The position numbers were made by a program, and so were the translations under genes. The notes under the pieces are model-generated. The model was given only the letters and a program-made list of their open reading frames with translations. It was not told the origin of the DNA and did not search any database. DNA of 64,000 nucleotides from Styela clava (taxonomy: Eukaryota), in NCBI RefSeq assembly GCF_964204865.1, contig NC_135257.1:15500001-15564000 (forward strand), written 5' to 3'. Positions 3,001-44,706 of the stretch are shown here, one piece after another. The first letter of the stretch is position 1. Each line of letters begins with the position of its first letter.

Positions 3001-3991
3001 AGAGAGTGTCGGCAGTGAAGATTTCACTGATTTGAAGATTTCACTGATTCACTTCAAAACATTTAGGTACCAACTATCACGCTCATGCAATCGAATTCTA
3101 TTATTGTAAACAAAGGAGGGATGATCAAATATATGTACAAGAAGGTACCACGCTAGTACCAGTAATGCCTTATCTGAGTTAAGTGTTCTCATACGTCATG
3201 AAAAGTGTTCCCATAAATTGAAATAAACGGCAACGTTTTGGTTGAAATATTAGATTTTTTATCACCCAGAGGAAATTAAAAACAGTACTAGAATTCTTGC
3301 AACTATTTTCATCCCTAGGTACCATAAATTTGGAATCGTAAAAAAAAGCAACGTTTTCTCAACGACAACCACAAACCCTACTAACAACAAAAATAATGAC
3401 AATTTGGCTACCCCGACCCCGACTAATTACGGTAACTAAATTTACAGGCCCGAGCCAAAAAATTCATATTTAGGAGTTCTTTGAATTGTGGAGAACATAA
3501 GGGTATAACATGTTCCAGTGCAAACGTAAAGATCTGATCTTGAGTATTTGTGGTTCAACAAATCCTGATAAAATTATATTTTGTATAAAATATAATCTGG
3601 TAAAAAATGACTAAAAGTTAGTATACCCATGCAATCAGCATTGCAGTTACTTTAGATACCATGCAAGCATACCCACCTTTCGATGAGTTACATGTTCATT
3701 ACACCCTGTATCAGCTTGATAAAAAATATTGCTTTCATCGAACATTTTTTAAAATCTATTGTAAAAAAATACTTAAATATACTGTAAATATACTGTATTG
3801 TGAAAAAATTCCTCATTCTCACGCAATACTTAATCTAACATTCAAAATACTCGGATAAATAGGATAGCAAAACAAAGAAAAAAAGACGGATTAAAATATC
3901 AGTAAAATAAATTCTTACCGTGTATGGAAGATACGATCGTTAGATAAGAGATGAACAGCAAAATTGGAACTCCATAAACTGAAATACTCAT
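1..3991 (-). CDS. Secreted three-Kunitz-domain serine protease inhibitor (TFPI-like architecture); 3' end outside the window
   Basis: Coding exons 3991-3919 (signal peptide MSISVYGVPILLFISYLTIVSSIH, donor GTAAG), 855-649 (Kunitz 1: CKLPVKIGECRAWYSRWYFNENWQRCEMFHYGGCGGNSNRFLTRRECEKSC) and 427-1 (Kunitz 2 CFLPMKPGPCRMLQRKYYFD...YGGCHGNKNNF...C; Kunitz 3 CSLPMKRGPCQHNVRRFFYD...WGGCYPNDNNF...C; then a tail). Both introns are phase 1 with canonical sites. A 5'UTR donor (GTGAGT) lies at 4140. Confidence 0.93.
1304..2123. mobile_element. Non-autonomous hAT-type element in the Kunitz gene intron
   Basis: Ends CAGGCACCGGCAACC ... GGTTGCCGACCCCTG; flanks CTCTTGTC / CTCTAGTC (8-bp TSD, 7/8 match). Confidence 0.7.
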
Positions 3992-6175
3992 AATTTTAAG
4001 CAGATTTCTGTCTGAGAAAATATAAAATAGTACTTGAACATTTTGTGCATAAACTCGGGCACAGTATTTCTAACATAGGTAGCCAACAGTACAATAAACT
4101 TGAATTGTAACTTGATCGAAAAACCTAACCAGTTACTCACGAATTACAGAAATATGAACTACTAGCTGCCTGTACGCTTTTAATGTGTCAGCGTTGCTGT
4201 TATTGCAATCGAGAAGTTTGAATCGAGTTATGAATGAAAGGTCTTCCAAGAAGGTCCAGTTCATTGAAACTGGTCATTACGAACTCGCTCATTCCAAATT
4301 TGTATGAGCGACCTTTTATTACTTCCTCATCAATAACTATATTATGTTGTTTAGCATTGGGCAAAGATGGTTTGCTTTTGTATATCCATGAAACTTCCTA
4401 AACATTTTGATTACTTCCTCCATTTCATCAAAGTTAAAAGAAAGTAATAAAAATATGGAATGCATAATATTAAATGAATGTGTAGGTCTTTTGATGCAAA
4501 AATGGGTTATGGCTTTAATATGAATTATATTTATTTTTTGGAATAGGCTGGATATGAAAATCCGAATAAACTTTGAATAAATAATTTTTTGACAAATATT
4601 TGGTAGTTTCAATTTCCAATAACCCAAGTTTTATTTTTTGATAAAAACTTTAATACATGCGCTATACGCAAAGAACAACTATGGCACAAAGAATTGAAAG
4701 GACAGTTATTTTCCACATATTCAGACTATCGTGTCAATATGACCATGTTTTCCCACTGAATTTGAACTTCAAATAACTGGTTGATACTGAATGTTTTGCA
4801 CTCTTACATTATATCATAAAATTTCAAGTCCAAGTCAATATCGTTATTTGGTCTAACCCAGCATTTAGCCAGGTGTACAACATACTGATGATTATTTTCT
4901 AATTAAAGATATGGGGGGGGGGGTGACTATCGTATCGGTAAACAACAATTTTCCCACGACTCAAAACAAAATTGTAATAATAGTTTGCAAATGGAACGTT
5001 ATCACGCATCTGAAGAAAAAAAATCATTATGCAAAAAGTATAAAAACAGTTGTCAGAAATCACGAAAGTCGACAAAAATATTTCATGTATGAGAAGCGTA
5101 GTAAGATATGAAGAGATTCCGAGTTGCATTTTAAAGCAATAAACTTTTGAACAGGTCTGGTAGACTCAAAATCCTGTTATTCTGTGATGCCAGCCGCGCT
5201 ATGCAATTTTATTAACTCCACTAACTCCTGCAAATGTAACTAAATACTTGTTACTGGCTTAGTTTATGAACCCAAGTCTACTGGAGCATGTAGGTTATTT
5301 ATTCAAAGTCGCAAATTAAAACAAAAAATCAGAAATACTTTTTTCAAATAAACATTAAAACAACATCAAATAACCTTTGGCAGTGTGTGAGATCTGTACC
5401 ACGATTGAGATGACTTGAAAACACGAGTTGAACGTTGAACATAAGACGTTGACCAACTAGTTTTGTGCAGAATTACTGGAGACAATTGTAATTGATATTA
5501 AACTCACTTGTGTGAACCTTAGTACTTGTCATTTTGAAATAATTCTGACATTGTGTAAGCTTCAATATGCTTGGGCTGAGTTTGAAAGCTAGCAAACACC
5601 TTACACGAAAACGAACAAGGGCATTTTTCGTCAAGGAAAAATTATTGGACGCAAAGTGAACCTCTGGATCGGTTTGTTGGATTGTTGTTGCTGTTGGTAT
5701 TCCTCATGTTGTCGTTGGTGTGAAAACATCGCTGCTACAGGACTAGTTACTCTGACATTTTTAGTGGTTAAAGATTGTTGTTATCGCTAAAAGACTACAA
5801 CTTTTATTTATGTCTTGAATTTCTGTAGATGGGATTCGTTTTTTTAATTTAAACGTTCGCGTGATGATGTCATCAACATCAATAACTGAGTTTTTGTTAA
5901 GGTTATAGAGATATATAAGATATAGAGATAGATAATGTAAGAGATATGATGCTACTTTGGTTTGGTATTCGTGCTCATATATTTGAGCATTTCTCTCATG
6001 TTTCAATTAGGAAAATTTGGTTAGTAATAACTAGATTATTCCTCAATGATTTGCTGATCATATTTTACATTGCTTTCTTTTTGAAATATATATACAATAT
6101 ATATACAAACAATTTAATATATATTTTTCAATTATATCAAGATTCTTGAGCAATTACAAGAAATAAATACATTAA

Positions 6176-7568
6176 ATGGAGAGGTTCATCGTTGAAGGCC
6201 ATCCCGAAGAAAATGAGTTCGAAATTGCACAACCAAGTTCTGAAGATTTGCGTATTTGGAGCAACAAAACAATCCTTATTTTTTCTAGGACTGTTTCGGT
6301 AAAAGAATCTCCCGAACATCGTAACTACTGGCATCTGGAAAGAACAAAACATGACAATATGGTTTTTTGGAGTTTTTATCTCATGCGTGGCTCTAAGAAA
6401 TATTATCTTACGTTCCGTAAACGTGAATTAATGTTCCTGGCTGAGGACAAAGGGAAATCGGAAAACAGGTGACGGTGAATTAAAACACAATCTCTTTTTT
6501 CTTTGTTTTTTAATTTCGGTATTTGTTATATTTTACTTGTCCAATCTATGATTTTATTAAAGAGTAGAACAAGATGAACCATAAAACTTGATTCGTTTTG
6601 TCGTAGGTAGTTTATTTAATCTACTCTTTGTGTAATAATCAAAGTTTGTTTTCTAGATTGTTTCAATTACTCTTGCGATCTAATGGGAGTGTGTGCATCA
6701 GACAGGTCATTCTGGTTACCACCACAGTCAGACAAGATTTTTGAAGACCGACCAGGAAAATCAGCTTGTTATGGTTCCAGAAACAAATCTTGGGACAGAA
6801 TATGAGTGGTTTATATTAAAAAAACGCAGTGACATAGAAAAGTAAGTAGTTCAATCTTTTGCGTACTTCAAACTTCAATAATTCTTTTTTGCTTTTTCAT
6901 ACTATAAGTGTTAATATTTTAGTGCCACCAAAATGCTCCATTATGTTGAAATGGTTGCCTCCCATGAATCAAAAAAGTGGATAAGTCAAGGTGTGCTTCC
7001 TCATTCCGAGATTCAAGTGAATCAAACCGGCATCAAGCATGAATGGGAAGTTACAATAGGAGATAAATGGACGTTTGCCGCCGGACGTTATCACGCAATT
7101 CAAACTACAATTAGTGAGATTGACGTAGTGCACTTGGAGGAAGTTGCTGACGAAAATCAAGAAAGGTTGGTTATATAATATTTTAAATGACACGTCTTGT
7201 TTTATTTATTTTCCTCTCTTAATTTTTCTCCCCCTTTATGATATTCCTTTGATGATCTTTTTACTTTGTCTTTTTCAGTCTTCATTAATTATCATTTGAA
7301 TACAATTGACAACAGTTTTATACTATTTTACAGTCGATTGTTTCCTGCGGAGGGAGTAGAGTCAGTAGAGTACTTGTTTCAATCTCCGTCCAATACTGAG
7401 AAATATCTTGCTCTCGGCAATACGGTCGTTGTGTTGAGACCTGGCAAGACCAATGCTACGAGATGGCAACCAATAGAGGCGCGAATATCATATTTCGGAG
7501 AAAATGACGAAACGTTATTTTATCCTCCTGTCGGTGGTCGGCGTCACTCGTCCTCCTCCTCTTCATCT
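6176..7568 (+). CDS. Leaderless protein with two putative beta-trefoil domains (IL-1/FGF/fascin-like fold); 1-nt frameshift in exon 2; 3' end in a gap
   Basis: Exons 6176-6468, 6657-6841, 6923-7165 and 7334->7568 are joined by three phase-2 GT-AG introns. The product has six ~40-aa repeats of trefoil pattern (e.g. WSFYLMRGSKKYYLTF...RLFQL, TRFLKTD...EWFIL, YLFQSPSNTEKYLAL...TRWQPI). The frame breaks between 6684 and 6742. The fold is assigned from pattern only. Confidence 0.6.
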
Positions 7569-12300: not shown

Positions 12301-15300
12301 TAATATTTTGTTACTACGATTTCAAAGCAATTCGGTAAATGTAGAATTTAGTAATCCAGACAAAAAAAAAATTTTTTTGGGGCATCTAAATATTGAAATT
12401 GTGGAGATTTAAAAGTAATTAGTCCTTTTTTTGAAAAAAGAGCATTCTTTCAACAACATCACTAAAACTAATTTTCCGAAACGACCTAGAAGCCTACTTC
12501 GTGGCCAATATCCTGAAGTTGCAATTGATTCGCTATAGAAGTAACCACGAACTCCGAATTTCAATTATTGTAAGGGCGGCAATGGGTCCAACATTTTTAT
12601 CAAATACGGGACGATATCAGGGGGTCATGATTTAGTAATATGACATCTCATTATTTATTTGTTTTTCATTACAGGGAATATAGATGCAACATGCAAGTAT
12701 AAGGTGACAACAAAAAACAGAATCCATAAAATTTCTTAATTACTACTACAAAAATAAAGAAAATTTAAATAACATTTAAACTTCTGCTTAAGTATAATTT
12801 GTCACAAAAGTTTGAGTAATCTAGGACGTTTTGCATAAATTTCGTGCCCTCTGTAGAATATGTTCCAAATGACCTGGGTTATATAATAATATTTCAAAAC
12901 GCCAGTCATTCTATTTATCATTGTTCAAATTTATTTACTCGATTCAGATACATTTTTGAAAAAAGAAAAATACCAGAGCAAGTGACAAAAAAAGGTCTTT
13001 TCCAAAAAATGCTTCTCTGTTTTCGATCAAAATGTAGGATTAAGCAGCAAATGAACCGGTAATCTCCGACAGGGTAGACACAAAATGTCGATATCCAACT
13101 TTAAATTAGGTTAAATTTGCCAGAAATGCATTTATATATTTCAGTAAGTACGTCTACGTACGACTGCGAGTAAAAGGATGAAATTGCGCAGACTGAAGGA
13201 TTTTTTCTTAAAGAAAAATGAATATTTGAAGAAAACAACCCAACTTTACAACATGCCAATTTACAATGCAGATATTATCCCCTGACAGTAACTATTATTG
13301 GGGATTTGTGTGGAAATTTCGTACCCCCAATCTTTTGACCAAGTCTTCCAATTAGAAATCTATTAAACTTGTGCGAATACCCTTTATCATCTAAAATTTA
13401 CAAGACTTAGATGTGATGCGCACATAAGTCAATTTAAAAAATGTCTTTTTGAGGAGTCTTAAATGCCTAGAATATTTCATTTTGGGTTTAAATTAGCACT
13501 TTTATTATACACGTTCCTTTTGAATGGTCTTGCAGCGTCAGTGCTGTATGCCTGGTTAAGCAATATCATAGCTTTGTTTGAGATGTCGTTGCGAATTCTA
13601 TCGAAAATAATATGCTGTATATACACGTGCAATATTACAACAAATCAGTCGTGAAAAAGTGGTAGTTAGTTCGGTACTCACCTGGAAGTTAGTTTGATTT
13701 GTAGGGCGTACTAATCTCTAGGCCGTAAATGTGAATTATTATTTGGTAGAAGATATAAGCCGACAACCGTCCTATAATCCATTTTAGACTAGGAGATCGG
13801 GCATCGATTTTTGTCCTATTAGTCAAGAGATAATATATTGTAAGCTCAGTAAAGAAGGTAAGATTTTACAGTGAATTGATCATCAAACATGGCGTTGTTT
13901 TGAATGAGAGTTTTCGTTAAGCTAGCCATTACCAGTATGGCGCAATTTATCGGGATTAAATTCAAAAGGATTCGCCGGGTTTGCTATAAATGGTACATGT
14001 GTTGATTTCAAATCGCATCGATAAAAAACCGCCACGTCAACGTTTTTCGAGAACATTTTTCTTTTTTTAAATCGTTTCCCAAGTCGGAATATTTAACCCC
14101 GACACATCTCTAAACCCTGAGCAGTCACAGTATAAGCTACTTCTGTATAGTCAAGTGAGAGAATGTGACGATAGATCTGAGTTAATGGAAAAATATAGTG
14201 TTTCATGCGCAGATGAAAATAGCTTTTCATCAGTCTTATTTAAATCAAATGGTGTTACCATCTTGAAAAGATCCATTCAGTCTTCGAATTTTAGTTTCAA
14301 GTATAAAAATGATTTGTAGATGATCTATCTCAGAAAGTTTATGCATTGTTGTCGCAAAATTATTTTTAGAGCATTTTTGATCATCTTTCTGTTATTCTGA
14401 AATTTAAAATTATTAACACAAAATTCCAACTTGCAGGTTAGAAATTTTCGAGTTTATTTGATTCGAAGATGGCATATTAGAATTACTTAACTAAACATTA
14501 TCAACTCAAACGTGAGATGGGTTTCAGTAGTTGTCGAGAGAAAATGCAGACAGACCTTCAATTACTGGGTTATTGGACACGAAATGTACAAGCGGATATT
14601 TTGTTATCATGTTGTTGTTCTTCTTGTTCTTTTTGGTATTTTTCTTCTTGTTGATATGGAAAAATAGCTTTTCTCGTTAACTATTGGACCAATTGCTTTG
14701 AAATGATCAGTGGTTAAATAATTGTGTTTTTCGCTGGATTTATTTGTATTTGTTGATTTGTTTGTAGCGGATCTGCGACCTCTCTCGTGTTATGCGAAAG
14801 TCGGAATTTTTTTTACCTTACCGTCCAGTAAACTGGGTAAGGTACTGTAAAACATAAGATAGACTACTTCTTCGCGTTGATCATCGTGTCCATATATTTG
14901 AGCATCGCTCACTTGTTATTTTATTTGATGATGTTTTGAGACAATTTAGCATTTTGCAGCCCCCTTGTGGATAACCCTGACTAGTCTCTCGAACTACAAG
15001 ATAGGTTTTCATTTTTCCGCTTCCATCTATTTTATGTAAATTTTATGTAAATAATCACCAACGTTTACATGATATTGAAGCAGTCAAGTCGTAAAATCGT
15101 TCAATTTTTTTTCAATTCACCGAAATCTACCATATTTTCTTGCTAATTTATCGCCTTATTTTTCACTTTTCTACACAATTAACTTGTTTCTTTGAATATT
15201 TAGGATTATGTTTTGTTGTGAATTAATCGTATTCGACCAGGAGTATGAAATTAAAATGTCTTTCATACTTTTTCATTTCCCTATGTTATGTCGAACTTAC

Positions 15301-15660
15301 TTTTTTACATACCGTAATTACTTTCAGGGTCATATATCGTGGTTACACAAATCATGCAAAACAGTTTACTGTTGGGGTTAAAACGCAAGTACTAGGTAGT
15401 TAGGTGTTGGATTAAATCTGAAAACAATTGAGAGTAAAGTGCACAAAATCGTAGGCGACAAGTCACAATATTAGAAAATGTATTATGTATGGGGTAATAT
15501 TGGCGTCCACGTTACATGTTTAACCTCATAAGTTTTTTTTTATTTTTAAATTGTAATGGGTGATAAATAATTCAAATTTGAAAATTGCAGAAATAATAGT
15601 TTTTGGAATACCTATAATCACTCATATTTTTGCAAGTGCATTATATCGTCTAGAAAGAAA

Positions 15661-16519
15661 ATGACTCTGTGCTGTACATTACTGTTTGGTGAGTATGCTT
15701 ATTACGTTAATAGATTTTACAATTTATTAGATAGAAAACGGTCAATTAACTTAAAAATTATAGAAATCGGCTTCTGGCTTATATTTTTTCATAGGCCCGG
15801 AGTTTAGAAATCGTGACCTAAATGGCTTTATTTTTGTAGTTTTGTTAGCAACAAGTTTCTTCAGCGAAGACGTCGACGCAAGATCGTTTCCGACATTTTG
15901 TTCCGATATTTACAACACATTGCCTTCTCCGATGTGGCGACAGCTATGTGGTGAGTGCAAAATTTGTTGGTTTTTGATGCTCCGACGTAAATTCTGACGC
16001 TAGTTTGAAATCGTGTCAATAAATTCTCGTTTTTTATTTTTTGTTGAATAAAAGAATTATTAGAATGAACCTTATTTGCAAATAAACTGTTGGCCGGGAT
16101 TAGTATTAGAAATAGTATTAATAGCACTTCGAATATATTTTTTCCCTTTTTCTGTCGCCTAAGGAACTATCTACTCTGGGGTATGAGTTTTGAATCATGA
16201 CTGATATCCATGCTTATTTTGAGTCCCTCCGCGTGTATTTTTGTGTTGAGGCTGATGGTTTCTATTAAAAATGGTTGTAATTTTAATTAAAAGAGTTTTT
16301 TTTTTTTTAGGTTATGGCAACCCAGGACCATTCAATCCTAGAACTGCAATGAAACGTGACGAAGAAAAAGAAGTTTCCCGCGCGCTTTTAGAAGAATTAG
16401 CCGAGCTACAGTCAGATGGAGAAGTAGAGAAAAGAGACGGATTCTTTGCTCCAAGTGACGACTACCTAAACAACATGATGCGTTGGTTAAAGCTAAATTC
16501 CTACAATCGACGATATTAA
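15661..16519 (+). CDS. Putative neuropeptide/peptide-hormone precursor (130 aa), family unassigned
   Basis: Exons 15661-15688, 15795-15950 and 16311-16519 (phase-1 GTGAGT donors, AG acceptors) translate to MTLCCTLLFGPEFRNRDLNGFIFVVLLATSFFSEDVDA-RSFPTFCSDIYNTLPSPMWRQLCGYGNPGPFNPRTAM-KR-DEEKEVSRALLEELAELQSDGEVE-KR-DGFFAPSDDYLNNMMRWLKLNSYN-RR-Y*. It has a hydrophobic signal core ending VDA, dibasic sites and an acidic spacer. AATAAA follows at 16589. Confidence 0.75.
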
Positions 16520-16588
16520 TTTAAAAAATTGATGAGAAGTGTTTTTGGACGAAATACAGTTCGTGTAAATTTTGAATGTGATTGATTT

Positions 16589-16594
16589 AATAAA
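16589..16594 (+). terminator. Polyadenylation signal of the peptide-precursor gene
   Basis: AATAAA 70 nt after the stop codon. Confidence 0.55.
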
Positions 16595-19500
16595 GGATTG
16601 TGATATAACAATTTAATCTTGAATCTTGATTCATCTGGGATACGAAATACCTAGCGCTAGCCTAAAATTCTATTTTTTGAGAAAAATGAACTGTCTAAAG
16701 AACGATCAGGGGTGCTTAAAGTTTTGTCGATGCAGGCCGCATTACACTTTTCGTGAGCTTTCGAAGGTCGCAGAATTGCTCATACACTCTCTTGTATTCC
16801 GGAAGTTGTCCCACAAAACTAAATACAAAACAACAAATTACAAATATTTTCATCTTTTGTCTGACTGCGATTATTTCAGAAAATCCGTCTCAATAGCATT
16901 AGACACTAAATCATATGTATAATCCGAGCCTCACGTTCGATCTTTCATACTACAGAGAATTGGTTCCGAGTATGTAAAAATGTCCGTTTCTAACAAAAAT
17001 TTCTGTATTATATATATGAAACATAACATTCTAGGATATGTCATTATCTCTTAGCCAGATATTGCAACTTTTAGTGCATTAATATTCATGCCAATGTGAG
17101 TGTTTCGACTGGGAACAAAAGTGTCTGCTACTTCTCAAATTAGTGGATAATTACCTATTCCAGAAGAATACAGTTTTTATAGTTTTGGTTTGTTTAAAGC
17201 CATTTCTGCACGGATTTTGCAAATCTGACGGCGTGTCAACAAAATAGCATTTAACTTGACTGTTGGCTTGTTGGCTTTAACTTGGCCTTTTCTGAGACAC
17301 CCAATTATAATCATGACTGTAATTTCATAAAATAAAATTAAGAAACTTGAAACCAAATGGCAAGTAATAACATTTATCACTTTGTTGCTGAGAGTTTCAC
17401 ACTTACTCCTATGTAAGAGTATCATATGTTTTCAAAAAGTTCTGGCAGATCATTAATAATTACAAAAACTTCAAGGTCAAAAACAGTAACTGTTATTACA
17501 ATCTGTTGACAAAACACCTGAGCTAGCCCTAAATCAGGTATGTTTGTATTTTGTTCCTAGTTTAATTTGTTGTTGATGTTGCGGTCAGCAGTTGTTGTAT
17601 GTTTTGACAATTTACACACTCTGTTGTCTGTTACACGGGTAGTGCACACTAATATGTAACTCTAATATGCATTTCACGGATGCACAGACTGCTGTTTTGA
17701 TGCCTGCTAAATTTAAAAAACACAGATTCCAAAAAGTCATGCAGGTGGGCGAGGTCGTTACAAAATCTGCTTGGAAGGCTGGCGATTGCAAGTAATACGA
17801 GTGAGTGATCTGACAGGGGTTTTGTTCAACAACGACCTTGCGTGCGAGTTCGAGAGAATGTATCTGACTACGCGACTAACTGTTTGTAAGATCTTTCATG
17901 AATCACACATACGGAATGAGAGACACAGTTACGTCTCGTAAACCTTGCTTTTTACGAAGCAAATGCCCACCGTTCTATAAAAATTACCGATAGGCTTACG
18001 CCTTACCTGTTAATATAATCTGATTTAAGAATACAGGAACGTGATTGCTCGAAACTGAAATAAATGACCACGATGGAATGTAATTCATGTTTAAAATAAT
18101 ACCATTCAGCATGTTTTTGTGCCAGAGAATGATTTATTGCCATAAAAAAGTCAACACTATTATAAAATAAGTCAATAGCGGAAATAATTAACAGTGATTG
18201 ACTTTTTTCTATGCGGTTCAGTGTCCAAGACCGACCGAAGAGACCATTTTCATGACGAAGCATGAATATCGCGATTTCAAATGTATGCATTTCACAAAGC
18301 TGTAATATAATAAAATGTCGATACATCTGGAGATTGATTAAACGTTTTTTTTTCGAAAAGCATACACCTCAATATTTTATTTTACAAAACTTGTATTGGC
18401 TTGTATCAAAAATAATTCGGGGATAAACAAATTATAGATGTTTTTATACATGAGATACATGAGCGTAAATAAATTAAAGGTCAAGTAAGAATGTAATGTT
18501 CGTATTATTATTGAATAAATCAATAAACTAAGCAGCGAACTCTTCTCTACAACGTGCTGGTCTGTTGCACGAAGGTCCTCTCAAAGCATTCCCTTGGCTG
18601 CAATAAAGACTTATTATAACCCCAACTAAATATGCAATATTGTAATCGCGAGTGAAATAAACTATTTTGAGTGTTTCAAAGTTCAAAATATTCCTCAAAT
18701 CTGTAAAATATTCCTACAGTTTGAGATGATTCAGTTCGGATAATTCAGCAACGGGTGAATTTCGTGTATATTGGGCCATCCAGTGTAACAATGACTATTT
18801 AATATTTTTGGTTCGGTTATTGCCCAAATCTACTCTAAATTGGTCAGTTCACGCGTTGAAAAATAGCGACCAAGAAAGAATGAATGGTTTTCCTCGAGCA
18901 TTTATCTACTTTCTTGTTTATTTCCGTAACTTGATCTAATCAATTGGTTGCTTAATGCTTATAATGACGCACCGATGGAAATTTTTTATTTTTGTTATTA
19001 TATTGGATGATTTTGTTTATATATATTGTTGCAATGCTTGTTGGCAAAACACTAAATCTCTATATAATACCTCTAGCCACTCAGACACTTTTTTCACATA
19101 GTCATAGTCAAGTTTATTTTTTCCCATTCAGTAAAAATAACATACCTATTTAACAAAATACAAAACTGAAAACACATTTTTACTGGGAAAGAAAATTCGC
19201 GGGGAACCAGGAATGGTTATCGAGCAGCGACACCCGAGATTCAATATCTAACTTAATTTGTAAGGAAATTACGTTTTTAGAACGCTTTTAATATGAATGA
19301 GCATGGCTTTGGCAGCTGAGCATTAGCTCGTTCTCGTGGTTTTTCTGAATGTTTGTCAGTTTTTAGTCGTATTCCCAAAATTTAGGTATAAAGTGATTAA
19401 TTGAACAATCATTTCGTTTTCTGAAGAAATTTTAGTTTAGATGCCGTAATCAAAAATTAGTCCCGAAGCGGCGATAGACTATGTTGAAATATTCTCCCAG

Positions 19501-20780
19501 TACCTACTTTTGAACGGCAGGTGGTTGAAAATTTCAAATAAAAATGATAACTTGAAACATACAAATCAAATTGTATGCGCTAACTCGCAAAAACAGTCTT
19601 GTAAAAGCATCAGACATTTTGCAAGTAAAATGTAAAGAATTTTTCTGGGTCAAAGGTCGGGGACAACTCATCAGTCGTCACAGGGCTGCCACTCTAGATG
19701 TTTTATATCTAGATCTAGATGTTTTTTTCAAGATCTAGATGTAAAATTTGGAGCATGTATGTTAGCTATAAAATCTAGATATATATATTTTTCAAGGTTC
19801 TAAATATTATTTAGTGGGAAATAAATAAAGAGATGTGTGTAATACTGTAATAGGTGAATGAATATTATTTCATTATTTAGAAGTATTGATGTAAGATTGA
19901 TAAAACAGTACCGGTACCGGTTTTTATTTACGATAAAACTTATTCATATTGTATTCGTCCACGGGTACCATACAGCCATATGTACTTAAAATATTTGAAT
20001 AACGAATTAAACATGTTTAAAACATGTGACGTTTTAATTAACGTTAAGTAGAAAGGACGACGTTGGTCCGATGATATTGTTGCCAAGGCAGCAAGGGGTT
20101 TTCAAAATTATTAAGTTATTTAAGTCTATAAGTCGGTGGTTCTCAACCGGGGGTCCGCCAAGCATTTCCAGGTGGTCCCCGATTAAATTGTGATTTTAGG
20201 AAATTATTTGCAGTTTAATATCGTTTTTTTGTAATACGCTCGAACATTTGCTGCCTATGACAATGTGACAATAGCCTACAAAAACTATTTTGATTCATCT
20301 CCCGTGAACCTATTGTGACAAATACAAGTTATGACAGCACAATGATAAATACGAGAACGCAGCTACAGTGATCACTTTCTCCGTTTTGGTGCGCCATTTT
20401 GCCGTCCTACCCATAAGTATCGATGGAAGCATTACGTGTTATTGCAGTATTGTTCCATTCGCCTCCCCTTACCTTTGTGAAAGCGAATTTTTTGCTCTCG
20501 TTCATATCAAATTCAAGGCTCGTCACCAACCAAACGTCGAAGACGATTACGTGTTATTGTTCCATTTGCCTCCACTTGTGTTTGTGAAAGTGGATTTTCT
20601 GCTCTTGTTCATATCAAATCCAAGGCTCGTCTCCAACTAAACGTCTATGCGTGATGCGTCTATCGTTATCAAAAACACGACCACGCATTTCAAGACTTGC
20701 TTCTGATATACAACAGCAGAAATCCCATTGAGTGTATTCGATTTGACAAAATAAATGGAAATGTCCACTGGGTCTGGTTT

Positions 20781-21476
20781 GAGGGTCTTACTACTTACTG
20801 AATACAGCGCAAAACCGCACGAAACAGTGCAAAATAGCGCAAAACAGCGCGAAACAGAAGGAAACCAGCGCAAAACAGAGGGAAACAGCGCAAAACAGGA
20901 GACGCAGTCATTACCACCTCCTGCCACGAAAGAACCACGGCGCCTCTCGCCATGGTTTTATGGCGCTATTTCCGGTATATTTACAAGGTTTTGTACCGGA
21001 TTATAGGTCATCATGCGAAATTTTATCTACCTTTTTGGTGCTCCAGGAGTATGTGCAGCAATATGTCGCACAACCTGAATCCGCTACACACACACATACT
21101 ATTTTCAGGTTGTGCGCCATCTTGGTGCACATACTTCTGGAGGTCCATTTTTACCTAACCCCTGACCCTAAAGCCAACCATATCCATATGGAAAATGTTT
21201 TAAATTATGGTACCCAAAATGTGTCACCAGCAGGGGCAGACCTGCCATTACAGCATTACTGGCTACATACGTTGGTTTGTGTTTTTAATTTGCTGCCGAG
21301 GTACTCCAACTCAAAACAAGGTGCCCCGAACTCATTGCAAAATTTTTTTCTGCTTCATACTGTTTCCCTCTGTTTTGCGCTCTTTCATGCTGTTTCCCTC
21401 TGTTTTGCGCTGTTTTCACTGTTTCGCACTGTTTTGCGGTGTTTCGCGCTGTATTCAGTAAGTAGTAAGACCGCTC
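20781..21476. mobile_element. Foldback-like element with ~30-bp TIRs and 10-bp subterminal repeat arrays
   Basis: GAGGGTCTTACTACTTACTGAATACAGCGC ... GCGCTGTATTCAGTAAGTAGTAAGACCGCTC; arrays of AAAACAGCGC-like units inverted at the two ends. Confidence 0.8.
21036..21147. mobile_element. ~110-bp hairpin MITE, copy 1 of 3
   Basis: Palindromic arms ...CAAGATGGCGCACAACCTGAA / TTCAGGTTGTGCGCCATCTTG...; homologous to 56157-56268 and 60423-60537. Confidence 0.8.
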
Positions 21477-23497
21477 TCTGGAGTTTGGTGTTATTTTTTA
21501 CTTGGTTAAATCTGTATGGAACATTAGGTTGCTGTTTAAGCTATAAACTAAATTTCAAATAAAAAACTTTCGAGGGGTCCGCGACCGCTTTGAGAGCACC
21601 AAAAGGGTCCGCAAAGACAAAAAGGTAGAGAAACACTGCTATAAGTGCTATTGAATGTGTCTCTCTTTAAAAGTCAACTTTTCAAAATGCCAAAGTGTAT
21701 ATACACTACCAGCAAAAATTTAGAAAAGATTGGCTTAAGGAATGGTTTGCCCATTCGGATGATAAGAACAAGGTCTTTCGTAAGTTCTACGGGTGGGAAT
21801 TGAATTCTAGGTGATGTTAGCTTCTTCGACATCTAATATTACTGTATTATGGTTACTTTTCATTAAATTCAATGACTTCATATCTAGATGTTTTATTTTT
21901 CAATCTGGATGTTTTTCGAGGTTAATCTAGATGTTTTTAGTCAGGCAAAAGTGGCAGCCCTGAAGTCCTCTTGGTAGCAGAGTTGTCTCTGGGAGATTAG
22001 TACAAATTTTAAACATAATTTCAAAATCCTCCAATAAGAGCAGAGATATGATATAACACTGGTTGATAGTTGAACTTATATAGATGGGATATTATTACAA
22101 CAGAACAATAGTGGCACATCTTGACGTGACCGGTACGGTACGGTACCGTATATCAAGGTACCCTCGACATGACATACTGTACAGACATAGGCTAGCCTAT
22201 CTCAGATGAGTTTTGTATTTCAACTGAATTTACTATGGTAACTAGCCTAAATCAGCAATTACTGTACCGTTTTTTTACCTTGCCATCAATCTATGAAACT
22301 TGTAAGTTGCGGAGAGTATAAAACAACAAAAAAAATTTTTTTGTGCCCCCCACTTTCTCCTGGTCTCATTCTGATATTTAAGAATGAGAGTTTATTGTTT
22401 TAATCAGTTTTTAACGGAAACTATATAAAGCCTTTAGGTATTTTAACTTTGCTTCCCGAGAAATAACGTGGTATTTTCTCATCTTTGTTTGTGTAATGTC
22501 GCTTAGAATTATACTCTTTTGTGACAGACTAGACACTGAGGTTCAACGTTCTTACTACTTCTATTTAACTTGGGATAAGTTTTGAAGTTGCGGAGAGTTA
22601 AAAATAACAAAAAACACTATAAGCCCTCAGATTTTTTTCAAAATTTTTTTGTTATTGAATGGGCTATTTTTCGAAACTGCCAATAAAAGCAGCATCACAA
22701 TACACTAGGTGAAAAGAAGAACATGTTTAGATTTGGTTTTATTATGGCAACCAAACATTGATTCTTTTTTCGTTTATTCTTCAATTTTATGAACAATGTA
22801 GATGTAATATAACATATTTCAAACAGATTTAATATTTCAACCCAATTACCTAATGATTCAATAATTGTCCATCTCAATTGTCGTACATGGATACTGTAAA
22901 TTTTTTAGAAACCACCATTCTCAATGGATTTTCGTCTTAAAACTAGAAGCCTTAAAAATTTGATAAGCCAGTTATGCAAGTCGATGCACAAAGTAAATCC
23001 ATTACACAATTTTTTTATTATCGAGTTTGAGAATTGCTGTTCTAGGTCAAGCATCTGAGCTAAATTATTTGTTTTATTCCGTTATTCCTCCAGTTCTGAC
23101 TGAAATTATTTGGATATTCTGAATAAGTTTGCTTTTCTAAAAAATTATAAATGTAACGATTCAGCAATTGGGTAAGGTAAGGTCTATTACAATATAGTAT
23201 GAAATCTTACTCAGGCTGGTTCTATAGAGCGAGGTCTCTGTTAGGGCAGTAGGGTAAAACTTCTTCTGAAATATTTTGATTAGTCCTCGCAATTTGATGG
23301 TAACTACCGGTACTTCAGGCCCTGGAGGAATATGAGACTGTACGAGAATGCATATGGTGGTAGACCTCGCTTTAGGGCAGCACCTAACTTCATTTCAATC
23401 TGTCAGTTACTATATTATGTTGTTTTCAATCTAGTTGATAAATTATAATTATTCACAATTATAATTCTCTGAACAAGACCTACATACATGATCCACA

Positions 23498-26400
23498 ATG
23501 GAACGCGGAGGAAAGAAATTTAGGAAGAAACGTTCTGGGAAAGTGAGTCTGCCTTTTTCGTCTTACACTCTTCATTGTTACTGTATTATGTCAAAATAGT
23601 ACCATATGCTATTATTTCCTTCCTGATATTGTGGAACGGTGCTGTCACATCCCGCGTCAATTATATTTAGCGTCTGCATATCACGGTTCTGAAGTGCCTG
23701 CCGTTTCAATTAATGTTGTGTTGTGGTTGTGGTCTTGTTGAACTAATATGGCTGCTGTTTTTGCATTACCATTTAATGAGAATGTTGGGAAGAAAAAATT
23801 AGAAGAGGAAAATAAAAATGATTTTCTTGATGAATGTATTGTGGTGAGAGAATTGTGTAGTTTAATTTGAATTTTCAACCTACAAATATTCAGAAAGCAT
23901 GCACTATGATTACTGCATTACTAGTTTGTATAATGTAGAATGTTGATTTCGGATCATCAACCGAAGTGTTCTTTTGCCATTCTTTTCTGAATATTTTTTG
24001 TAAAATTAGGTTTAAATTCAAATTCTCTTTTTTAATATAGAGCACAAGTCTGCAAACAACAAAACTTGATATGGAAATCACCAAGTTTTTGAGGTTTAAT
24101 GTCCCAAGAAAAAGTACAGTAATGCAAAAACAAGCAGTGGAATATTTTCTAGGTTTGTTTTATATAATTCCATATTTCAAAGATTTTTATAGATTATTGC
24201 TTCATTATTTATCGACTAATATATTCACATCACTATAATATTCAAGTTTATATTGGGTTGTGATTTGTGAATTATTGTCAGCCAGCTCGTTACTAATTAC
24301 TTGTAGAACCTGTTTAATGATTTGATAATTGAAGCAATCAAACCACAACTTCAAGAGATGAGAAGTCTAATTTGATTGATTCAATGAAAACAATTTTATT
24401 TAGCTGTCTGACTGAGCTGTCTCTCTACTTTTCAGATGTTTCTTGACTTAAAAATGACTTTTTTGGTTTTTATTAGAGCAAACTTTCCAATACATATATT
24501 AAAATAAGTTTTCCACTTTTACCTAGGAAATAAAGCAGTCGATACTTTATTGGAGTCAAAATGGGCTACTCGCAAAAAAGGAGTCGATCAGTTATTTGTT
24601 TGTAGAGAAGATGCAATTACTTATTTGGATGAGTAAGTATTTCAATTCGTAACCGTAAAAGCAGTCAAGTAGTTGATAATTTGATTCAAATAATATAATT
24701 AAATAAATTAATTGTAATTAAATGGATATATACTTGAACACTTTATTTGATGCTTCTAAATAGCAACAGTCTTATGGTGACCATGATCATGAGTCCCCAA
24801 ATGGTATTCTATAAAACAAAAGTCGGGATTAGGCTATTTTATAAACAACCGCGATGTTTAATTCTGAAATATTTCTCTTTCAAAAGTGCTTATTAATTTA
24901 TTGATTTGACCTGCTTTTACCGGATATGCTATATTATCTGTAATAGTAAGGAACTAGTAGTTTCAATTTCAAACTTTTTTACTTACTCATCAGACTACTG
25001 CGGAAGAGCTTATTCTATAGAGTGGAAAAAATCGAGCTGGGGTCAAAAAACAAAGGCGATAAAAATGAAGTGTCAAAAAATAAGACAGACAAAACAGAAC
25101 AACAATCTGACAAATCTTCTGAAAATAAAAATGTTGTAGAGGAAGTACCTGCCATACAAGAAACAACTTTAAGACAAAGAAAAAAAGATAAAAAAACTGA
25201 AAATACTGAAGATGACAAAACTGAGGATTCGGAATCAAATAAACCAAAGTTGAAATTAAAAGCCAAAGACAAGGTGTGATTGGTTTATATTTTTGTGGAA
25301 ATTTTACCTTAATAATGTTGAGTGCACTAGAAGATGTCATAGAGGTCTAATTTGACTAGGCGAGCTTTATATCTAATTATACCCTCGAAACTTGTCATTT
25401 TCTCATTAAATTGTTGCTTCTCTTATAATTATTGTCAATTGAAAATCTGTAATAACTTTCAATACTGTGAACAAGACAGTGCTTTTGGTGAAATCCTGTT
25501 CCAAATCGGACAATTTGATGGCCAGGCATTTCATCTAATATTGTTCCTCCAATAAATAAAACTACATATTCCAGTTTTGCTGTCGGCTTTGGGAATGTTT
25601 TTATTGATATTGTATCCGAAACTGAAGATCGAATTTCAGGCTTTAATAAAGGATGATGTTATGAGAAATAAAACTTGTAACCAAAACTCAAAAAAGTTCA
25701 AATAAGCATTCTCAACAGATAAAAATTGCTAACATTCGCCAATGTTTTCGCTGGCAAAATTTGGTTTTCTTGGTGCTAGACTGCTACAATTGTGATCGAA
25801 AGAAGTCAGCCAGAAGTTTTCGAAATGGCTCGAGAGTCTGGATTTAGATTCAGGTGTAAAATTACCCCAACTCATAGTCATCAGCTTGCATTTTTTTTGT
25901 AAAATATTCCGACATCAACTTTTTTCTCTAAATCAAAACAGTTGATTTTTCAAAAACTTTCATCAAAATTACAAAACATTCAATTACAAAATTTGGGATG
26001 ACGCAATATGTGTACTCTTGACATCCATTTTACCTTAACCTTCTCACACAATTGAACGTAACCATGACAATCATATGCACACAATCGAACGTTCGATGTC
26101 CTTTACTATACCCTAGTTGCCTCGCCATGACAACCTTGTGAGACTGTCTCGCACTATAATTCCCATGGTTACGCAGGCTGTGGTTCCTTAGTCGATTTTT
26201 TTTTGTTGAAACGACCCGCCTGATGCTGTCACAATCAAACTAAAACCAAATTTTCAAACAATTTGTTGAGATTACGAATAAATTTAGTTCTGGCACGAGG
26301 CTTATTGTTTTCCAATTTTACTCATGTAACACTGTAAATATTTATCATAAAATGTAACTTTTTACGTCACACTTACATGGCCCGCCAGTCTAGGCAGGCA

Positions 26401-29003
26401 CAATTTTTGGCCCCTGGTCCAAAAACCTTGCCCATCCCTGATTCATCCTGTACTTCATTTATCTAGAAAACCAAAGAAAAGCAAGTCACAAAAGTAAAGA
26501 AGAGATATAAGTTGATTCCTCATAATGAGCAGAAATTTTTTGATTCAAAAGATATTTACATTTGGACATATAATCCTGTCAGTTGGAAAACAATTATCAT
26601 GGGTAAGTGGGATTTAATATCAAGAATGTCATGCAATCAACAGTCATTTGGAGCATATTTTCAAGGAAACCTACCGTAGTTTTTGTACAAAGCCTCCTAG
26701 ATTTTTGAAACTTCCGGGTATAATCATTCACAAACAGAAGTTCAAGAAGTTTAATTTCAGTCAACCACAAATCTCAATGTTGAAAAGCCAAAATGCCCAA
26801 AAACTATGAGGTTATGCTTTGAGCCGCATCGTTCAGAGTAAAATAGTATGTACTATGTATACAAGATTGTTGCAGCATAGTCGTCCAATTTTTGACTCTT
26901 GAGTGGTGAGGTATTCACTGGATATAGATTGATCTCTGTTCACTGACATCTTTATATTTCAATGCAAAAGATCCCAATATTCTTGCCGGATGCCTGTATA
27001 ATTTTCAATCTATTGCTGATTGTTATCTATTCATTTCCTAGGTATAGCCGTATTACTTTGTGTTGTTGCTGCAACTTTATTTCCACTATGGCCACCAGAA
27101 GTTCGACTCGGAGTTTATTACTTATCAATTGCCGGTGGAGTATTTATTGGAGCTATATTTGGAATCGCACTTGGTAAATTATTTTATGACAATAGATTCG
27201 ATATAAAAAAACTTATTTCAGTTGCTGATTGTAATAACAACAAAATACTTTTATATAGAAGTACATTAATTTTTTATTCAGGAGCAAAACCGTGGAACTT
27301 TGGTTGTCAAAGACTATAGTTTGTAGTTGACCATTTTTTATACAGGGCATTGTTTTTCACTTCAAAGATCTATTTTATATTACTCAAAAACCACCAATTA
27401 CAAATTCATTTATTGCCTTATTTCATCAACTATTTTTTAAGTAGAAAAATATGCCTTGGGCATTTTAAAACTACAATAATTCAAGTTTAATGAATAATAA
27501 AGTAACGTTGGGGGCTTTATCAACCAAAAATGCCAAAACTTGAAATAGACAGCATGAGAAAACAGAGAATACTATGCATATTTTTGATTTTTAACATGTT
27601 CTGAAATACCATTACTTTGCTTAATATTGATTCAATCTACGATTGGACACTAGCTTAGAGAATATCTGTTTCTTTACAATATTTTCAAATAAATTTTATT
27701 TCTTCATTTTAATAACACTTGTCTTGAATCCCTCAACTTGGTTTAACATTTTCCCAGCAAATAATGATTAAAAATATTAAGATGTTCAAAATGTAAGTTA
27801 CATCATAAGTGACGTTATCATTCTGTATATCCATTTGATAATTTTTAAAAAAGATAAAAATCATAAAATATCACAGAATCCTTTTTCCTATATCTTATCT
27901 TGGTGATATTGCTTATCACAGAGTTATTCAAAATATATTTCTTTTAATTTAGACACTTATAAAACATGTTTTTCATCTATTACAGCTCGCTCTATATTAT
28001 GGACGATTATTTGGGTATTCACTGGAGGGAATCATCATTTATGGATTCTGCCGAATCTGCTGGCTGATGTCGGTTTTTGGGAATCGTTCAAACCGTATTA
28101 TACATATGAATACAAAGGATCCAAAGATAAAAAAGATGAAGATGAGGAAGATGACGAGAATGAGGATGAGGAAGAACAGAGAGAGGGAGAAGATGAGAAT
28201 GAAGAGAATAAAGAAGGTCAGTGTGATACTAAATAAATAGTTTCATTGATTTGTGTTTAGCTGGAAATAAGTTTATCAAATTGTGACAACTTTATAGATC
28301 ATTATTTCTCATCTACTGGTGGTACATACCGGTACCTACCCAACTCTTTTTGGTATATTATTTTTTTTGTCATAGCTAGTGTTACAGGTAGCTCCCATTC
28401 TAACTTTTGAACAATTGGAGTAGTTTATAATGTGTGCATAAATATGTATTACAATAATAATGATTAACTAACCAATATTAGTAATACTACAGTGAATACA
28501 GAGAAAAATTTCTTCATTTCGTCCCCCAAAACCAAAAAAATTACTCCCTGGACAGGAAGCTATATTGTGACGGAGCAAGGATTCAATTTTTAGCTGATGT
28601 AGTCATGTTACAGTCAGGAATGACGTACACAAAAATTGTTATTCCACGCCTACTAGATGTATTTGTGGTACTGAGCTATACACTACACCCACAGGTATGG
28701 TAATCGTACCATAACTAGTTCCAGCTTTGTTCAGAATATTGTTTTGGGGAAATTATGGATGAAATATTTCGTTTTGGATTCATGTCCATTTATTTGAGCA
28801 TTGCTCTCTTGTAATAAATTGAAATTTCATCTGACTGGCAATTTTATGATACATCCTTGTTTTATACAGATGGTGATATGCAAAAGAGTGGGCTTTATAA
28901 TGAGGAGAATCAGGAAAATGAATCTCTTGAAGAACGTAAAACTGATACTGGAGCTACCACAAGATCTGAAGCCTCTACGGAACGCTCCGGAAGCGAATCG
29001 TGA
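23498..29003 (+). CDS. SEC62: Translocation protein SEC62
   Basis: Eight exons: 23498-23542, 24041-24152, 24527-24632, 24994-25273, 26467-26602, 27042-27173, 27986-28216, 28870-29003, with consistent phases. Motifs KFLRFNVPRKST, KAVDTLLESKWA, YIWTYNP, TLFPLWP, HHLWILPNLLADVGFWESFKP match Sec62. Two TM helices and an acidic tail; AATAAA at 29145. Confidence 0.97.
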
Positions 29004-30649
29004 CGCAACAAAAATTTGTTTCAGTAACATTGAGGTTTGCCTAAATCCTGCCTTAATATATTTGCTGTGAATGTGCTAGTGAAAAGTACGCGAAACTATT
29101 AAAACAATTTATCCTCTGCTTAGTAGCGTTCGATACTCACTATAAATAAACATGTACATTGGTGTGTTATTAATACCAAATTTTGACTTTTTTCAATGAA
29201 TATAGTTGAATTTGACATATGGTTTTGCTTGTAATTCAAATTACAATTGTCTAAAAGATGGGAATCTGAACTCATTTTGGTGATTATTTGGCATGGACAA
29301 AATACTCCACATTCTTAGGCTATGGAGTTGCAAAGTGTGAGTTGGGCATATTTTTTTTATTGATATTGGAATTTGAGTCATATTGCGAACAGCTCACCCA
29401 CCAAGAGTCGTCAGTTTAAGTTTAATTTCAGATTTTTAATGGTGCTAATCAAGTCAAAATTCATCTCAATAATTCCAAGACTTGCGCATACACCAAATTT
29501 TTTGTGAAAGTAGTGTCGTTTTTTACTTGGTACCTTATTTCGGATTGAGTTGAGTCTGCTTCAGCTTTCATCTTCCTCACCTTCAAAGATTATTGAAATA
29601 TTCACAATCATCAGCAGATTCCGGTCATTCTGACTCTGTTTCTGTCTTGAATTGTCTTTTGTTTATCTTATCATATGGTACAATGATGGTATTTGATTTG
29701 TCGAACAGTAGCAGATTGAATTATGAAGCGATATGGTGGTGAACACATGACTATTCCATTGTGTTCCAAGAATGCTTCCAGTATGCACATAAAGTTAGGT
29801 CATGTTTTGTTGCCCTGAAGCAATTTGCTGCATATTTGCAGATCAAATACTATTTGGATATTTCAAAATATTGTGAGAATCAGACTTGACACTGAAAATA
29901 TTGCGTTTGTTACCAATTTGTAATTTCAAGACTATGCCTGAATGCATTCTAATATATTATATATATATTATGTGGATGAATTTCAATTGATTATCGCAGA
30001 CATGTGTAAACCTTGAGAATCTGTCTCCACATTTTTTCACAAGATTACTATTATTTGAAATTATATATTCACACAAATAGTTTAGTTCTATATTACTTGT
30101 TTTTGTTTCTGTTCAAACTGCTGCTTTTGGTCATATTTTAGCTGCTAAAATTGAGGGTAAAATTTGATAATGTATATTGAGTTCAAACTCCCTTTCAAAT
30201 TGTTGTCATGATAGAGAACCAATTTCTCATGATTTTTCTTGCAATGCATGTCAGAAGTCTGAGTGTTTCCTGTTTTTTTTTCTTCTGACATACCAGATGT
30301 GTTTCGTATCATATATGGTGGTGTTCTGTTCTAGTGAACATGAGGATATATAAATTCTTGCTGGATGGAATATTGTTTTGTTAATTATTTTGCGAAATAT
30401 TATTAGAGTCCTGCCGAACTGTTGTGTCAACTCGGAGCGTTAGAAAGATGCTCGCTATCGCACCACAGATTAACAGATTCAGATAATATATTTCTATCAT
30501 GCAAGAATCAACACAAAAATTAAAGCACGTAAAATTTACAAACGTGTATAATGACATTAGTAAAAAATGTAATTATACACATAACTTGCGCGGAATCGAC
30601 AGTTTGCACATTCTGCTAAGCTTGGGAAACACATTTGCCATCGTACCTT

Positions 30650-32679: not shown

Positions 32680-44706
<12,027 letters not shown>

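What the first reader, a model, noticed from the sequence alone, without database searches (positions are those of the whole stretch)
15661..16519. Orphan prepro-peptide with a 17-residue disulfide ring and a second helical peptide
Seen: three short exons give a 130-aa precursor. It runs signal -> (R)SFPTFCSDIYNTLPSPMWRQLCGYGNPGPFNPRTAM -> KR -> acidic spacer -> KR -> DGFFAPSDDYLNNMMRWLKLNSYN -> RR-Y. Established: a signal, dibasic convertase sites and an acidic spacer are the hallmark of neuropeptide/hormone precursors. The C-x15-C ring has natriuretic-peptide size but lacks CFG/DRI. The C-terminal peptide is amphipathic and only loosely NPY-like (AP.DD...MRWLKL...RRY), with no amidation Gly. 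I cannot assign it to a known family, so it may be an undescribed signalling peptide.
Basis: partly seen in the sequence, partly recalled or inferred. Interest (0 to 1): 0.78.

Follow-up and report, generated by a model that had tools for sequence, protein, structure and literature searches.

The report
Orphan sea-squirt two-peptide prohormone
An expressed, single-copy gene of the sea squirt Styela clava encodes a small protein built like a hormone precursor that likely releases two signalling peptides with no detectable relatives, and a weak resemblance to the glucagon family makes it a testable candidate ligand for the animal's glucagon-receptor-like gene.

Summary
RNA contigs join 15688 to 15840, not 15795 (5 of 7 runs), and 15950 to 16311 (7 of 7). 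This gives a 115-aa precursor identical to S. clava uncharacterized LOC120346361, with a clean signal-like N-terminus. The mRNA appears to carry a trans-spliced leader joined near 15590.

The anatomy is well above chance: signal, peptide 1 with a 17-residue Cys ring, KR, acidic spacer, KR, amphipathic peptide 2, RR (7 of 20,000 shuffles). Alleles show purifying selection. No homologue was found in searches of 5.8 and 1.84 billion proteins, Pfam, the PDB or the genome. Natriuretic, NPY, MCH, orexin and PrRP membership tests fail.

New lead: a published glucagon/secretin prototype aligns best, without gaps, at the first residue after the predicted signal (T5, F6, S8, D9, L14; p about 4-9e-4). 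It aligns more weakly to peptide 2, and the genome holds a glucagon-receptor-like GPCR. His1 is absent, and the prolines and ring argue against a glucagon-like helix.

Verdict: orphan prohormone (0.8); glucagon-superfamily ligand (about 0.2).

The parts
15589..15590 (+). AG acceptor at which a spliced leader is likely trans-spliced
   Evidence: Contigs of 3 runs start aligning at 15589-15590. One run has a 19-nt loose end before 15592 whose first 18 nt have 108 genomic copies and none in the window. 6 of 6 array copies read are followed by a GTAAGT donor.
15591..15688 (+). Exon 1: 70-nt 5' UTR without upstream ATG, start codon at 15661, codons 1-9 plus one base (phase-1 intron follows)
15689..15839 (+).
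   Evidence: joint in 5 of 7 runs
15840..15950 (+). Exon 2: rest of the predicted signal peptide (to Ala23, 15880) and residues 24-46 of peptide 1
   Evidence: hydropathy
15899..15949 (+). Cys30-Cys46, predicted 17-residue disulfide ring; no amino-acid change among alleles seen
   Evidence: the disulfide itself is inferred
15951..16310 (+). Intron 2 (360 nt, GT..AG, phase 1, splits the Gly47 codon)
   Evidence: joint in 7 of 7 runs
16311..16357 (+). Tail of peptide 1 (residues 47-60, no amidation Gly) and KR 61-62
16358..16435 (+). Acidic spacer (residues 63-86, net -8) and KR 87-88
16436..16519 (+). Peptide 2 (residues 89-112, amphipathic helix 96-107), RR 113-114, Tyr115, stop
16520..16614 (+). 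3' UTR with AATAAA at 16589; the end is not fixed (one run reads on to about 16800)
   Evidence: contigs cannot show RNA ends

Best explanation
A spliced, single-copy Styela clava gene encodes a 115-residue protein that is predicted to enter the secretory pathway and is likely cut at its KR/RR sites into a Cys-ring peptide and an amphipathic peptide, which would act as hormones or neuropeptides on G-protein-coupled receptors. Shown: transcription, both introns, the open frame, the layout of Cys, dibasic sites and acidic spacer, purifying selection among alleles, and convertase-domain genes in the genome. Inferred: trans-splicing of the leader (strong), signal cleavage after Ala23, the Cys30-Cys46 bond, convertase cleavage with carboxypeptidase trimming to give non-amidated peptides 24-60 and 89-112, regulated release, and receptor action. 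The receptor class I think most likely is class B1, because peptide 2 has the flexible-N-terminus-plus-amphipathic-helix build of such ligands and both peptides carry parts of the glucagon/secretin motif. The first receptor to test is the glucagon-receptor-like gene at G000:C2 about 15.777-15.787 Mb. The stated confidence is for the prohormone; that specific pairing is about 0.2.
For: Junctions in RNA-type contigs of three studies; product identical to the NCBI protein. Hydrophobic core of residues 1-17 followed by V-D-A at 21-23. Architecture statistics. Allele differences: 7 synonymous against 4 amino-acid changes, p 0.003-0.015 depending on transition bias; none in the ring, the Cys, the dibasic sites or the helix of peptide 2. 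The language-model neighbours shown with a family are nearly all short hormone or neuropeptide precursors (neuropeptide S 0.91, DH31, PDF, galanin, CCAP, NPF, NMU), with no one family favoured. The genome has 11 convertase P-domain matches. Ciona-specific neuropeptides without homologues have proven GPCRs (PMC6475428, passages). Class B1 lead.
Against: No peptide, tissue or activity data were obtained. SignalP and NeuroPred could not be run. The signal lacks a basic n-region and has an acidic c-region. Neither peptide has an amidation Gly. No orthologue was found in any other species, so conservation of the Cys pair and KR sites beyond one species is untested. The allele list is incomplete because sites near contig ends are not listed. 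An Atlas score of 0.9 or more arises for 4-10 in 100 shuffled proteins. The fold model is poor (pLDDT 53).
Confidence: 0.8

Rival explanations
1. It is a highly diverged member of the glucagon/secretin (PACAP/GCG) superfamily with two tandem family-derived peptides, and supplies the ligand of the tunicate glucagon-receptor-like GPCR. This is a specific form of the best explanation.
For: The family was picked because of peptide 2; the test then found the best ungapped register of the published prototype (PMC2880984) at residue 24, the first residue after the signal site fixed earlier. T5, F6, S8, D9 and L14 are identical there. Anchored shuffles: 42 of 100,000 (14 positions) and 76 of 100,000 (26 positions); background 59 of 150,510 and 73 of 80,649 k-mers. 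The next-best mature register puts D3, G4, F6 on peptide 2, with S-D, Y and W-L following in order (gapped: 154-1,180 of 10,000 shuffles). Each core lies on its own exon. A class B1 receptor in the genome has a TM5-7 exon closest to the glucagon receptor (78 bits, against 61 GLP-1R and 44 PTH1R). Ciona has two GCGR-like receptors, and that study found no tunicate PACAP homologue; proven amphioxus ligands share only 10-15% with human PACAP (PMC7251081).
Against: His1, called a key residue in PMC2880984, is absent in both peptides; G4, F22 and W25-L26 are absent in peptide 1; peptide 2 needs gaps. Unanchored, peptide 1 gives only 242-522 of 10,000 and the whole mature region 559-1,302 of 10,000; 13 of 599 post-dibasic 24-mers score as well as peptide 2. 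Pfam PF00123 does not list the locus; the PDB holds no match. Pro38, Pro40 and a ring from position 7 to 23 do not fit the long single helix of these ligands (established knowledge). Both introns are phase 1, whereas I recall phase 2 for vertebrate family genes (recalled, not checked). About ten families were tried by eye and several gave partial look-alikes. Two other exons of the receptor rank secretin or VIP receptors first.
Confidence: 0.2
2. It is a diverged member of another known family (natriuretic, NPY/PrRP, MCH, orexin, PTH or granin type).
For: The ring size equals that of natriuretic peptides (15 residues between the Cys; PMC6878697). One allele scores Pfam Orexin at E 0.23. The Cys ring after the orexin peptide in both Ciona prepro-orexins has S-P five residues before the second Cys, as here (by eye, supplement of PMC10987541). 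Peptide 1 follows the signal and has a phase-1 intron, as in PrRP genes (PMC7314547). The genome has a PTH-receptor-like exon.
Against: Each family fails a defining feature (see membership table). Genome-wide family searches for orexin, MCH, NPY, ANP and PrRP do not list this locus. The other allele has no Orexin score. The PTH and chromogranin likenesses are recalled only and were not tested beyond the general Pfam scans.
Confidence: 0.1
3. It is a secreted non-signalling peptide precursor, for example a defence (antimicrobial) or structural peptide kept inactive by the acidic spacer.
For: S. clava is known for antimicrobial peptides with anionic pro-pieces (recalled; reviews appear in the listing). 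Peptide 2 is amphipathic.
Against: The peptides are not cationic (net +2 over 37 residues and -1 over 24). The gene is single copy and under purifying, not diversifying, selection.
Confidence: 0.08
4. It is a spliced RNA whose frame is incidental or not translated.
For: No homologue anywhere; the protein is known only from gene prediction.
Against: Synonymous excess among alleles, no frame-breaking indel in the coding part while the 3' UTR has them, and the non-random precursor layout.
Confidence: 0.02

Closest known systems
S. clava uncharacterized protein LOC120346361 (XP_039272008.2 / .1)
   Same: It is this gene: identical under the RNA-supported splice model; version .1 differs at 3 residues.
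   Different: The record gives no function; neither its id nor a 10-residue stretch of the ring was found in the paper library.
Proglucagon-type and amphioxus PACAP/GCG precursors (secretin superfamily, PF00123)
   Same: Tandem peptides between dibasic sites with a spacer; F6, S8, D9 register at the start of peptide 1; D3, G4, F6 in peptide 2; a glucagon-receptor-like gene in the genome.
   Different: No His1; a disulfide ring and two prolines inside peptide 1; peptide 1 directly follows the signal; no Pfam score.
Ciona-specific neuropeptides (Ci-LF, Ci-NTLP, Ci-YFV/L; PMC6475428, PMC12441681)
   Same: Lineage-restricted ascidian precursors with no homologues; a precedent for orphan peptides with their own GPCRs.
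   Different: Those described in the passages read are short or repeated peptides; here there are two unlike peptides of 37 and 24 residues, one with a Cys pair. The unnamed Ciona peptides BR000878-BR000886 could not be compared (supplement not readable).
Natriuretic peptides (PF00212)
   Same: Two Cys with 15 residues between.
   Different: No sequence likeness inside the ring; the ring sits at the front of the precursor; no Pfam or PDB match.
NPY/NPF and PrRP
   Same: A helix followed by a terminal R-Y; for PrRP, a peptide next to the signal with a phase-1 intron.
   Different: No amidation Gly, wrong length and position, no phase-2 intron in the terminal Arg codon.

Membership tests
Convertase-processed prohormone (general kind) | N-terminal signal peptide | tested here: inconclusive
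   Hydropathy 2.2-2.9 in windows starting at residues 1-9 and a V-x-A site at 21-23; no signal-peptide predictor on hand.
Convertase-processed prohormone (general kind) | Dibasic sites flanking peptides, with an acidic spacer | tested here: met
   KR 61-62, KR 87-88, RR 113-114; 7 of 20,000 shuffles.
Convertase-processed prohormone (general kind) | Mature peptides exist in tissue and activate a receptor | not testable with these tools
   Needs peptidomics and receptor assays.
Glucagon/secretin superfamily | His (or Tyr) at position 1 | tested here: not met
   Arg24 in peptide 1; peptide 2 begins at the D3 position (feature from PMC2880984).
Glucagon/secretin superfamily | F6 and S8-D9, L14 | tested here: met
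   In register in peptide 1; in peptide 2 F6 is in register and S-D is shifted.
Glucagon/secretin superfamily | G4, F22, W25-L26 | tested here: not met
   Pro, Leu and Tyr-Gly in peptide 1; peptide 2 has G4, and W-L only with a gap.
Glucagon/secretin superfamily | Scores with Pfam PF00123 | tested here: not met
Glucagon/secretin superfamily | Each peptide on its own exon; intron phase shared with family genes | tested here: inconclusive
   The cores lie on exons 2 and 3, but intron 2 cuts peptide 1 at Gly47; both introns are phase 1; the family's phase is recalled only.
Glucagon/secretin superfamily | Cognate class B1 receptor present and activated | tested here: inconclusive
   A glucagon-receptor-like gene is present; activation is not testable here.
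Natriuretic peptides | Ring of two Cys enclosing 15 residues | tested here: met
   Cys30, Cys46; feature from PMC6878697.
Natriuretic peptides | Conserved ring sequence (PF00212) at the precursor's C-terminus | tested here: not met
   No Pfam, PDB or genome-search match; the ring follows the signal.
NPY/NPF | 36-40 residues ending in RF/RY-amide; phase-2 intron in the terminal Arg codon | tested here: not met
   24-27 residues, no Gly, no intron there; features from PMC7314547; PF00159 does not list the locus.
PrRP | Peptide next to the signal with a phase-1 intron | tested here: met
PrRP | C-terminal RF/RY-amide | tested here: not met
   Peptide 1 ends in Met60 before KR; PF15172 finds nothing in the genome.
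MCH | C-terminal position; Met/Ile after the first Cys; Lys/Arg penultimate to the second Cys | tested here: not met
   N-terminal position, Ser after Cys30, Gln-Leu before Cys46; features from PMC4772807; PF05824 does not list the locus.
Orexin | Four Cys including a Cys-Cys pair; G-I/V motif and Gly-Lys-Arg amidation site | tested here: not met
   Two Cys and no Gly before KR; compared by eye with the supplement of PMC10987541; PF02072 E 0.23 for one allele only.
PTH and chromogranin families | Family motifs | not tested
   Likeness recalled from memory only; the general Pfam and PDB scans list neither.

The most novel reading that the evidence does not exclude
This is the ligand gene of the tunicate glucagon-receptor-like GPCR: a two-peptide glucagon/secretin-superfamily precursor in the vertebrates' sister group whose first peptide has lost His1 and is closed by a 17-residue disulfide ring, a form not seen in that family.
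Probability: 0.2. Interest if true: 0.8.

Novelty: new member of a known kind. Interest (0 to 1): 0.5.

Why it matters
[quoted passage not shown] An expressed, selected precursor with no detectable relative adds a defined pair of peptides, with calculable masses, from another ascidian lineage. If it pairs with the glucagon-receptor-like gene, it would bear on where the glucagon/PACAP ligands came from, a question the papers read here leave open for tunicates, and would show a ring-closed ligand for a receptor class that normally binds one long helix. If it does not, it is one more lineage-restricted ascidian peptide: useful, but a known kind of thing.

Tried and rejected
Acceptor at 15795: not seen in RNA.

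Homologue searches: exon 3 and residues 22-63 gave 1 candidate each, the gene's own allele; longer proteins gave 0 of 298 candidates at E<=10; phmmer over 1.84 billion representatives gave only itself at E<=0.001. These miss short diverged peptides, so absence is not shown. Atlas searches gave no single family.

Paralogues: the only other genome hit (E 0.128) has a stop inside and was dropped; none in the window. Internal duplication of peptide 1 into peptide 2: not significant (1,359-4,161 of 10,000 shuffles, where peptide 2 was cut one residue short).

Family searches of the genome: the orexin matches were 3 copies of a repeat. An orexin C-terminal pattern gave 7 matches, none precursor-like, so no separate S. 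clava orexin gene was found. MCH, NPY, ANP, PrRP and glucagon profiles gave nothing over cut-off.

Structure: the AlphaFold model from a single sequence had pLDDT 53; its fold search had no match at E<=0.001. No complex was predicted, because no whole receptor protein was in hand.

RNA families: Rfam found nothing useful on the leader array. The run search listed no holder on record as RNA; the RNA nature of the runs rests on their spliced contigs.

Literature: earlier scan notes gave nothing. Two papers that bear on novelty (Mirabeau and Joly 2013; On et al. 2015) are not held, and the main supplement of PMC12441681 could not be read.

Full report
What is there. The window comes from the ascidian Styela clava: the only database match to exon 3 is that species' uncharacterized protein LOC120346361, held in two versions of 115 aa. 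Of 9 RNA-like runs listed I laid 7, from three studies, plus one DNA-like run. Five of the 7 join 15688 to 15840, and the other two have contigs starting at 15841. All 7 join 15950 to 16311, while the DNA-like run is continuous. No joint to 15795 is listed; the joint table was cut, that was whole. The corrected product equals XP_039272008.2 letter for letter.

The 5' end. One contig has a 19-base loose end before 15592. Its first 18 bases are absent from the window but occur 108 times in the genome, against 0 for the reversed control, many of them in a tandem array on contig C4. In 6 of 6 array copies read they are followed by a GTAAGT donor and a word close to the Ciona Sm site quoted in PMC7986045. 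The Ciona leader starts and ends with the same four bases (PMC1488885 Table 1). Three other contigs start aligning at the AG at 15589-15590. So the mRNA is very likely trans-spliced there; the exact join is uncertain by about one base. The ATG at 15661 is then the first in the message.

Is the layout more than chance? The precursor reads signal (1-23), peptide 1 (24-60, Cys30 and Cys46), KR, spacer (63-86, net -8), KR, peptide 2 (89-112), RR, Tyr. Three dibasic sites alone are unremarkable (1,830 of 20,000 shuffles). A dibasic-flanked segment this acidic arose in 7 of 20,000, and acidic and bulky residues are sharply sorted between spacer and peptides (p about 1e-4 each). The helix moment of peptide 2 was reached in 24 of 5,000 shuffles. 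These features were chosen after looking. Among alleles, the 9 coding sites listed are 7 synonymous and 2 replacements, and the second database version adds 2 replacements; p is 0.003-0.015 for 7 of 11. None touches the ring, the dibasic sites or the helix. Sites near contig ends are not listed, so the count is partial. The gene is single copy, and the genome has convertase P-domain genes (11 matches).

Relatives. None was found in three word-seeded searches, in phmmer over 1.84 billion representatives, in Pfam, in PDB sequences, or by fold search with a poor model. The Atlas places it among short hormone and neuropeptide precursors without favouring a family. Short diverged peptides escape all these tools, so restriction to this lineage is not shown.

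Family tests. The natriuretic ring size is met (PMC6878697), but the sequence and position are not. NPY fails on length, amide and intron (PMC7314547), and that paper and PMC5818035 report NPY lost in urochordates. PrRP shares position and intron phase but not the amide. MCH fails all three features given in PMC4772807. Orexin fails on Cys number and amide, although one allele scores E 0.23 and the ring faintly resembles a Cys pair downstream in Ciona prepro-orexins. That so many families give partial look-alikes is a warning for what follows.

The glucagon lead. Peptide 2 opens with D-G-x-F and then has S-D, Y and W-L in order, so I tested the secretin-family prototype printed in PMC2880984. 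Peptide 2 scored weakly (154-1,180 of 10,000 shuffles; 13 of 599 background segments did as well). Unexpectedly, the best ungapped register in the whole precursor fell on residue 24, the start of peptide 1 as fixed earlier, with T5, F6, S8, D9 and L14 identical. Anchored, this arose in 42-76 of 100,000 shuffles and in 4-9 per 10,000 background k-mers; unanchored, in 242-522 of 10,000. The genome has a class B1 receptor gene on C2. Its TM5-7 exon is closest to the glucagon receptor by 17 bits over GLP-1R and its extracellular exon narrowly to GLP-2R, while two shorter exons rank secretin or VIP receptors first. No glucagon-like ligand scored over cut-off in the genome. PMC7251081 reports two GCGR-like receptors in Ciona, no PACAP homologue in tunicate data, and functional amphioxus ligands at only 10-15% identity to human PACAP. 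Against this reading: no His1; no G4, F22 or W25-L26 in peptide 1; two prolines and a ring from position 7 to 23 that do not suit a long helix; no Pfam score; and phase-1 introns where I recall phase 2 (unchecked). I put membership at about 0.2 and do not file it in the family.

How it most likely works. Shown: trans-splice evidence, splicing, frame, layout and selection. Inferred from established prohormone biology: entry into the secretory pathway, closure of Cys30-Cys46, cleavage at the two KR sites and at RR, trimming of basic residues, and release of two non-amidated peptides that act on GPCRs, with class B1 the first guess. Tissue and function are unknown; nothing here shows neural expression.

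Novelty and literature. Ten library searches were made. The gene id, the protein id and a ring stretch gave 0 papers; topic searches (listings only) showed no catalogue of Styela peptides. Of 15 papers opened I saw passages of all (outline or keyword hits), whole named sections of PMC10987541, PMC12441681 and PMC7251081, parts 2 and 5 of the body text of PMC7314547, and two of three parts of one supplement of PMC10987541; none was read whole. Mirabeau and Joly 2013 and On et al. 2015 are not held. I recall that the former proposed tunicate glucagon- and PTH-like candidates; if one matches, this is an already predicted family. The table of Ciona peptide sequences in PMC12441681 could not be read.

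Verdict. A real, expressed, selected orphan prohormone gene, with one junction corrected. The kind is well known and lineage-restricted peptides are expected in ascidians, so the novelty is a new member of a known kind. Interest is 0.5, lifted by a cheap and decisive receptor test.

Noticed in passing
G000:C4 about 23.29-23.48 Mb (L016, L017) and dispersed copies (L008-L015): Probable S. clava spliced-leader RNA gene array, with units of about 831 bases, a GTAAGT donor and an Sm-like word. The 8 dispersed copies read are followed by other sequence without that array context and may be retroposed trans-spliced mRNAs. The leader may be about 21 bases, since several copies share three more upstream bases. 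I did not establish whether this leader is in print.
   Followed up: partly
G000:C2 about 15.777-15.787 Mb, minus strand (L044, L048, L049): Class B1 GPCR gene closest to glucagon-family receptors; its last exons appear twice, about 8.85 kb apart, in L048 (partial tandem duplication or assembly artefact).
   Followed up: partly
L043 (G000:C14 about 6.724 Mb, minus strand): Exon of a PTH-receptor-like class B1 GPCR (best PDB match PTH1R, E 1.4e-11).
   Followed up: partly
window 24950-28236 +: SEC62 exons (Pfam PF03839), a possible synteny anchor for finding orthologues.
   Followed up: partly
window 644-856 -, 42817-43194 -, 55670-56044 +: A Kunitz-domain exon (E 2e-19); an exon that looks by eye like a G-protein-coupled receptor kinase (recalled, no Pfam call); a weak NIPA-type transporter exon (E 0.016).
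   Followed up: no
window about 14570-14920: A very high-copy short repeat about 700 bases upstream of the trans-splice site (word depth of about 18,000-37,000 in the DNA-like run).
   Followed up: no
window about 5400-7560 +: Several exon-like frames of an upstream gene with no Pfam match.
   Followed up: no
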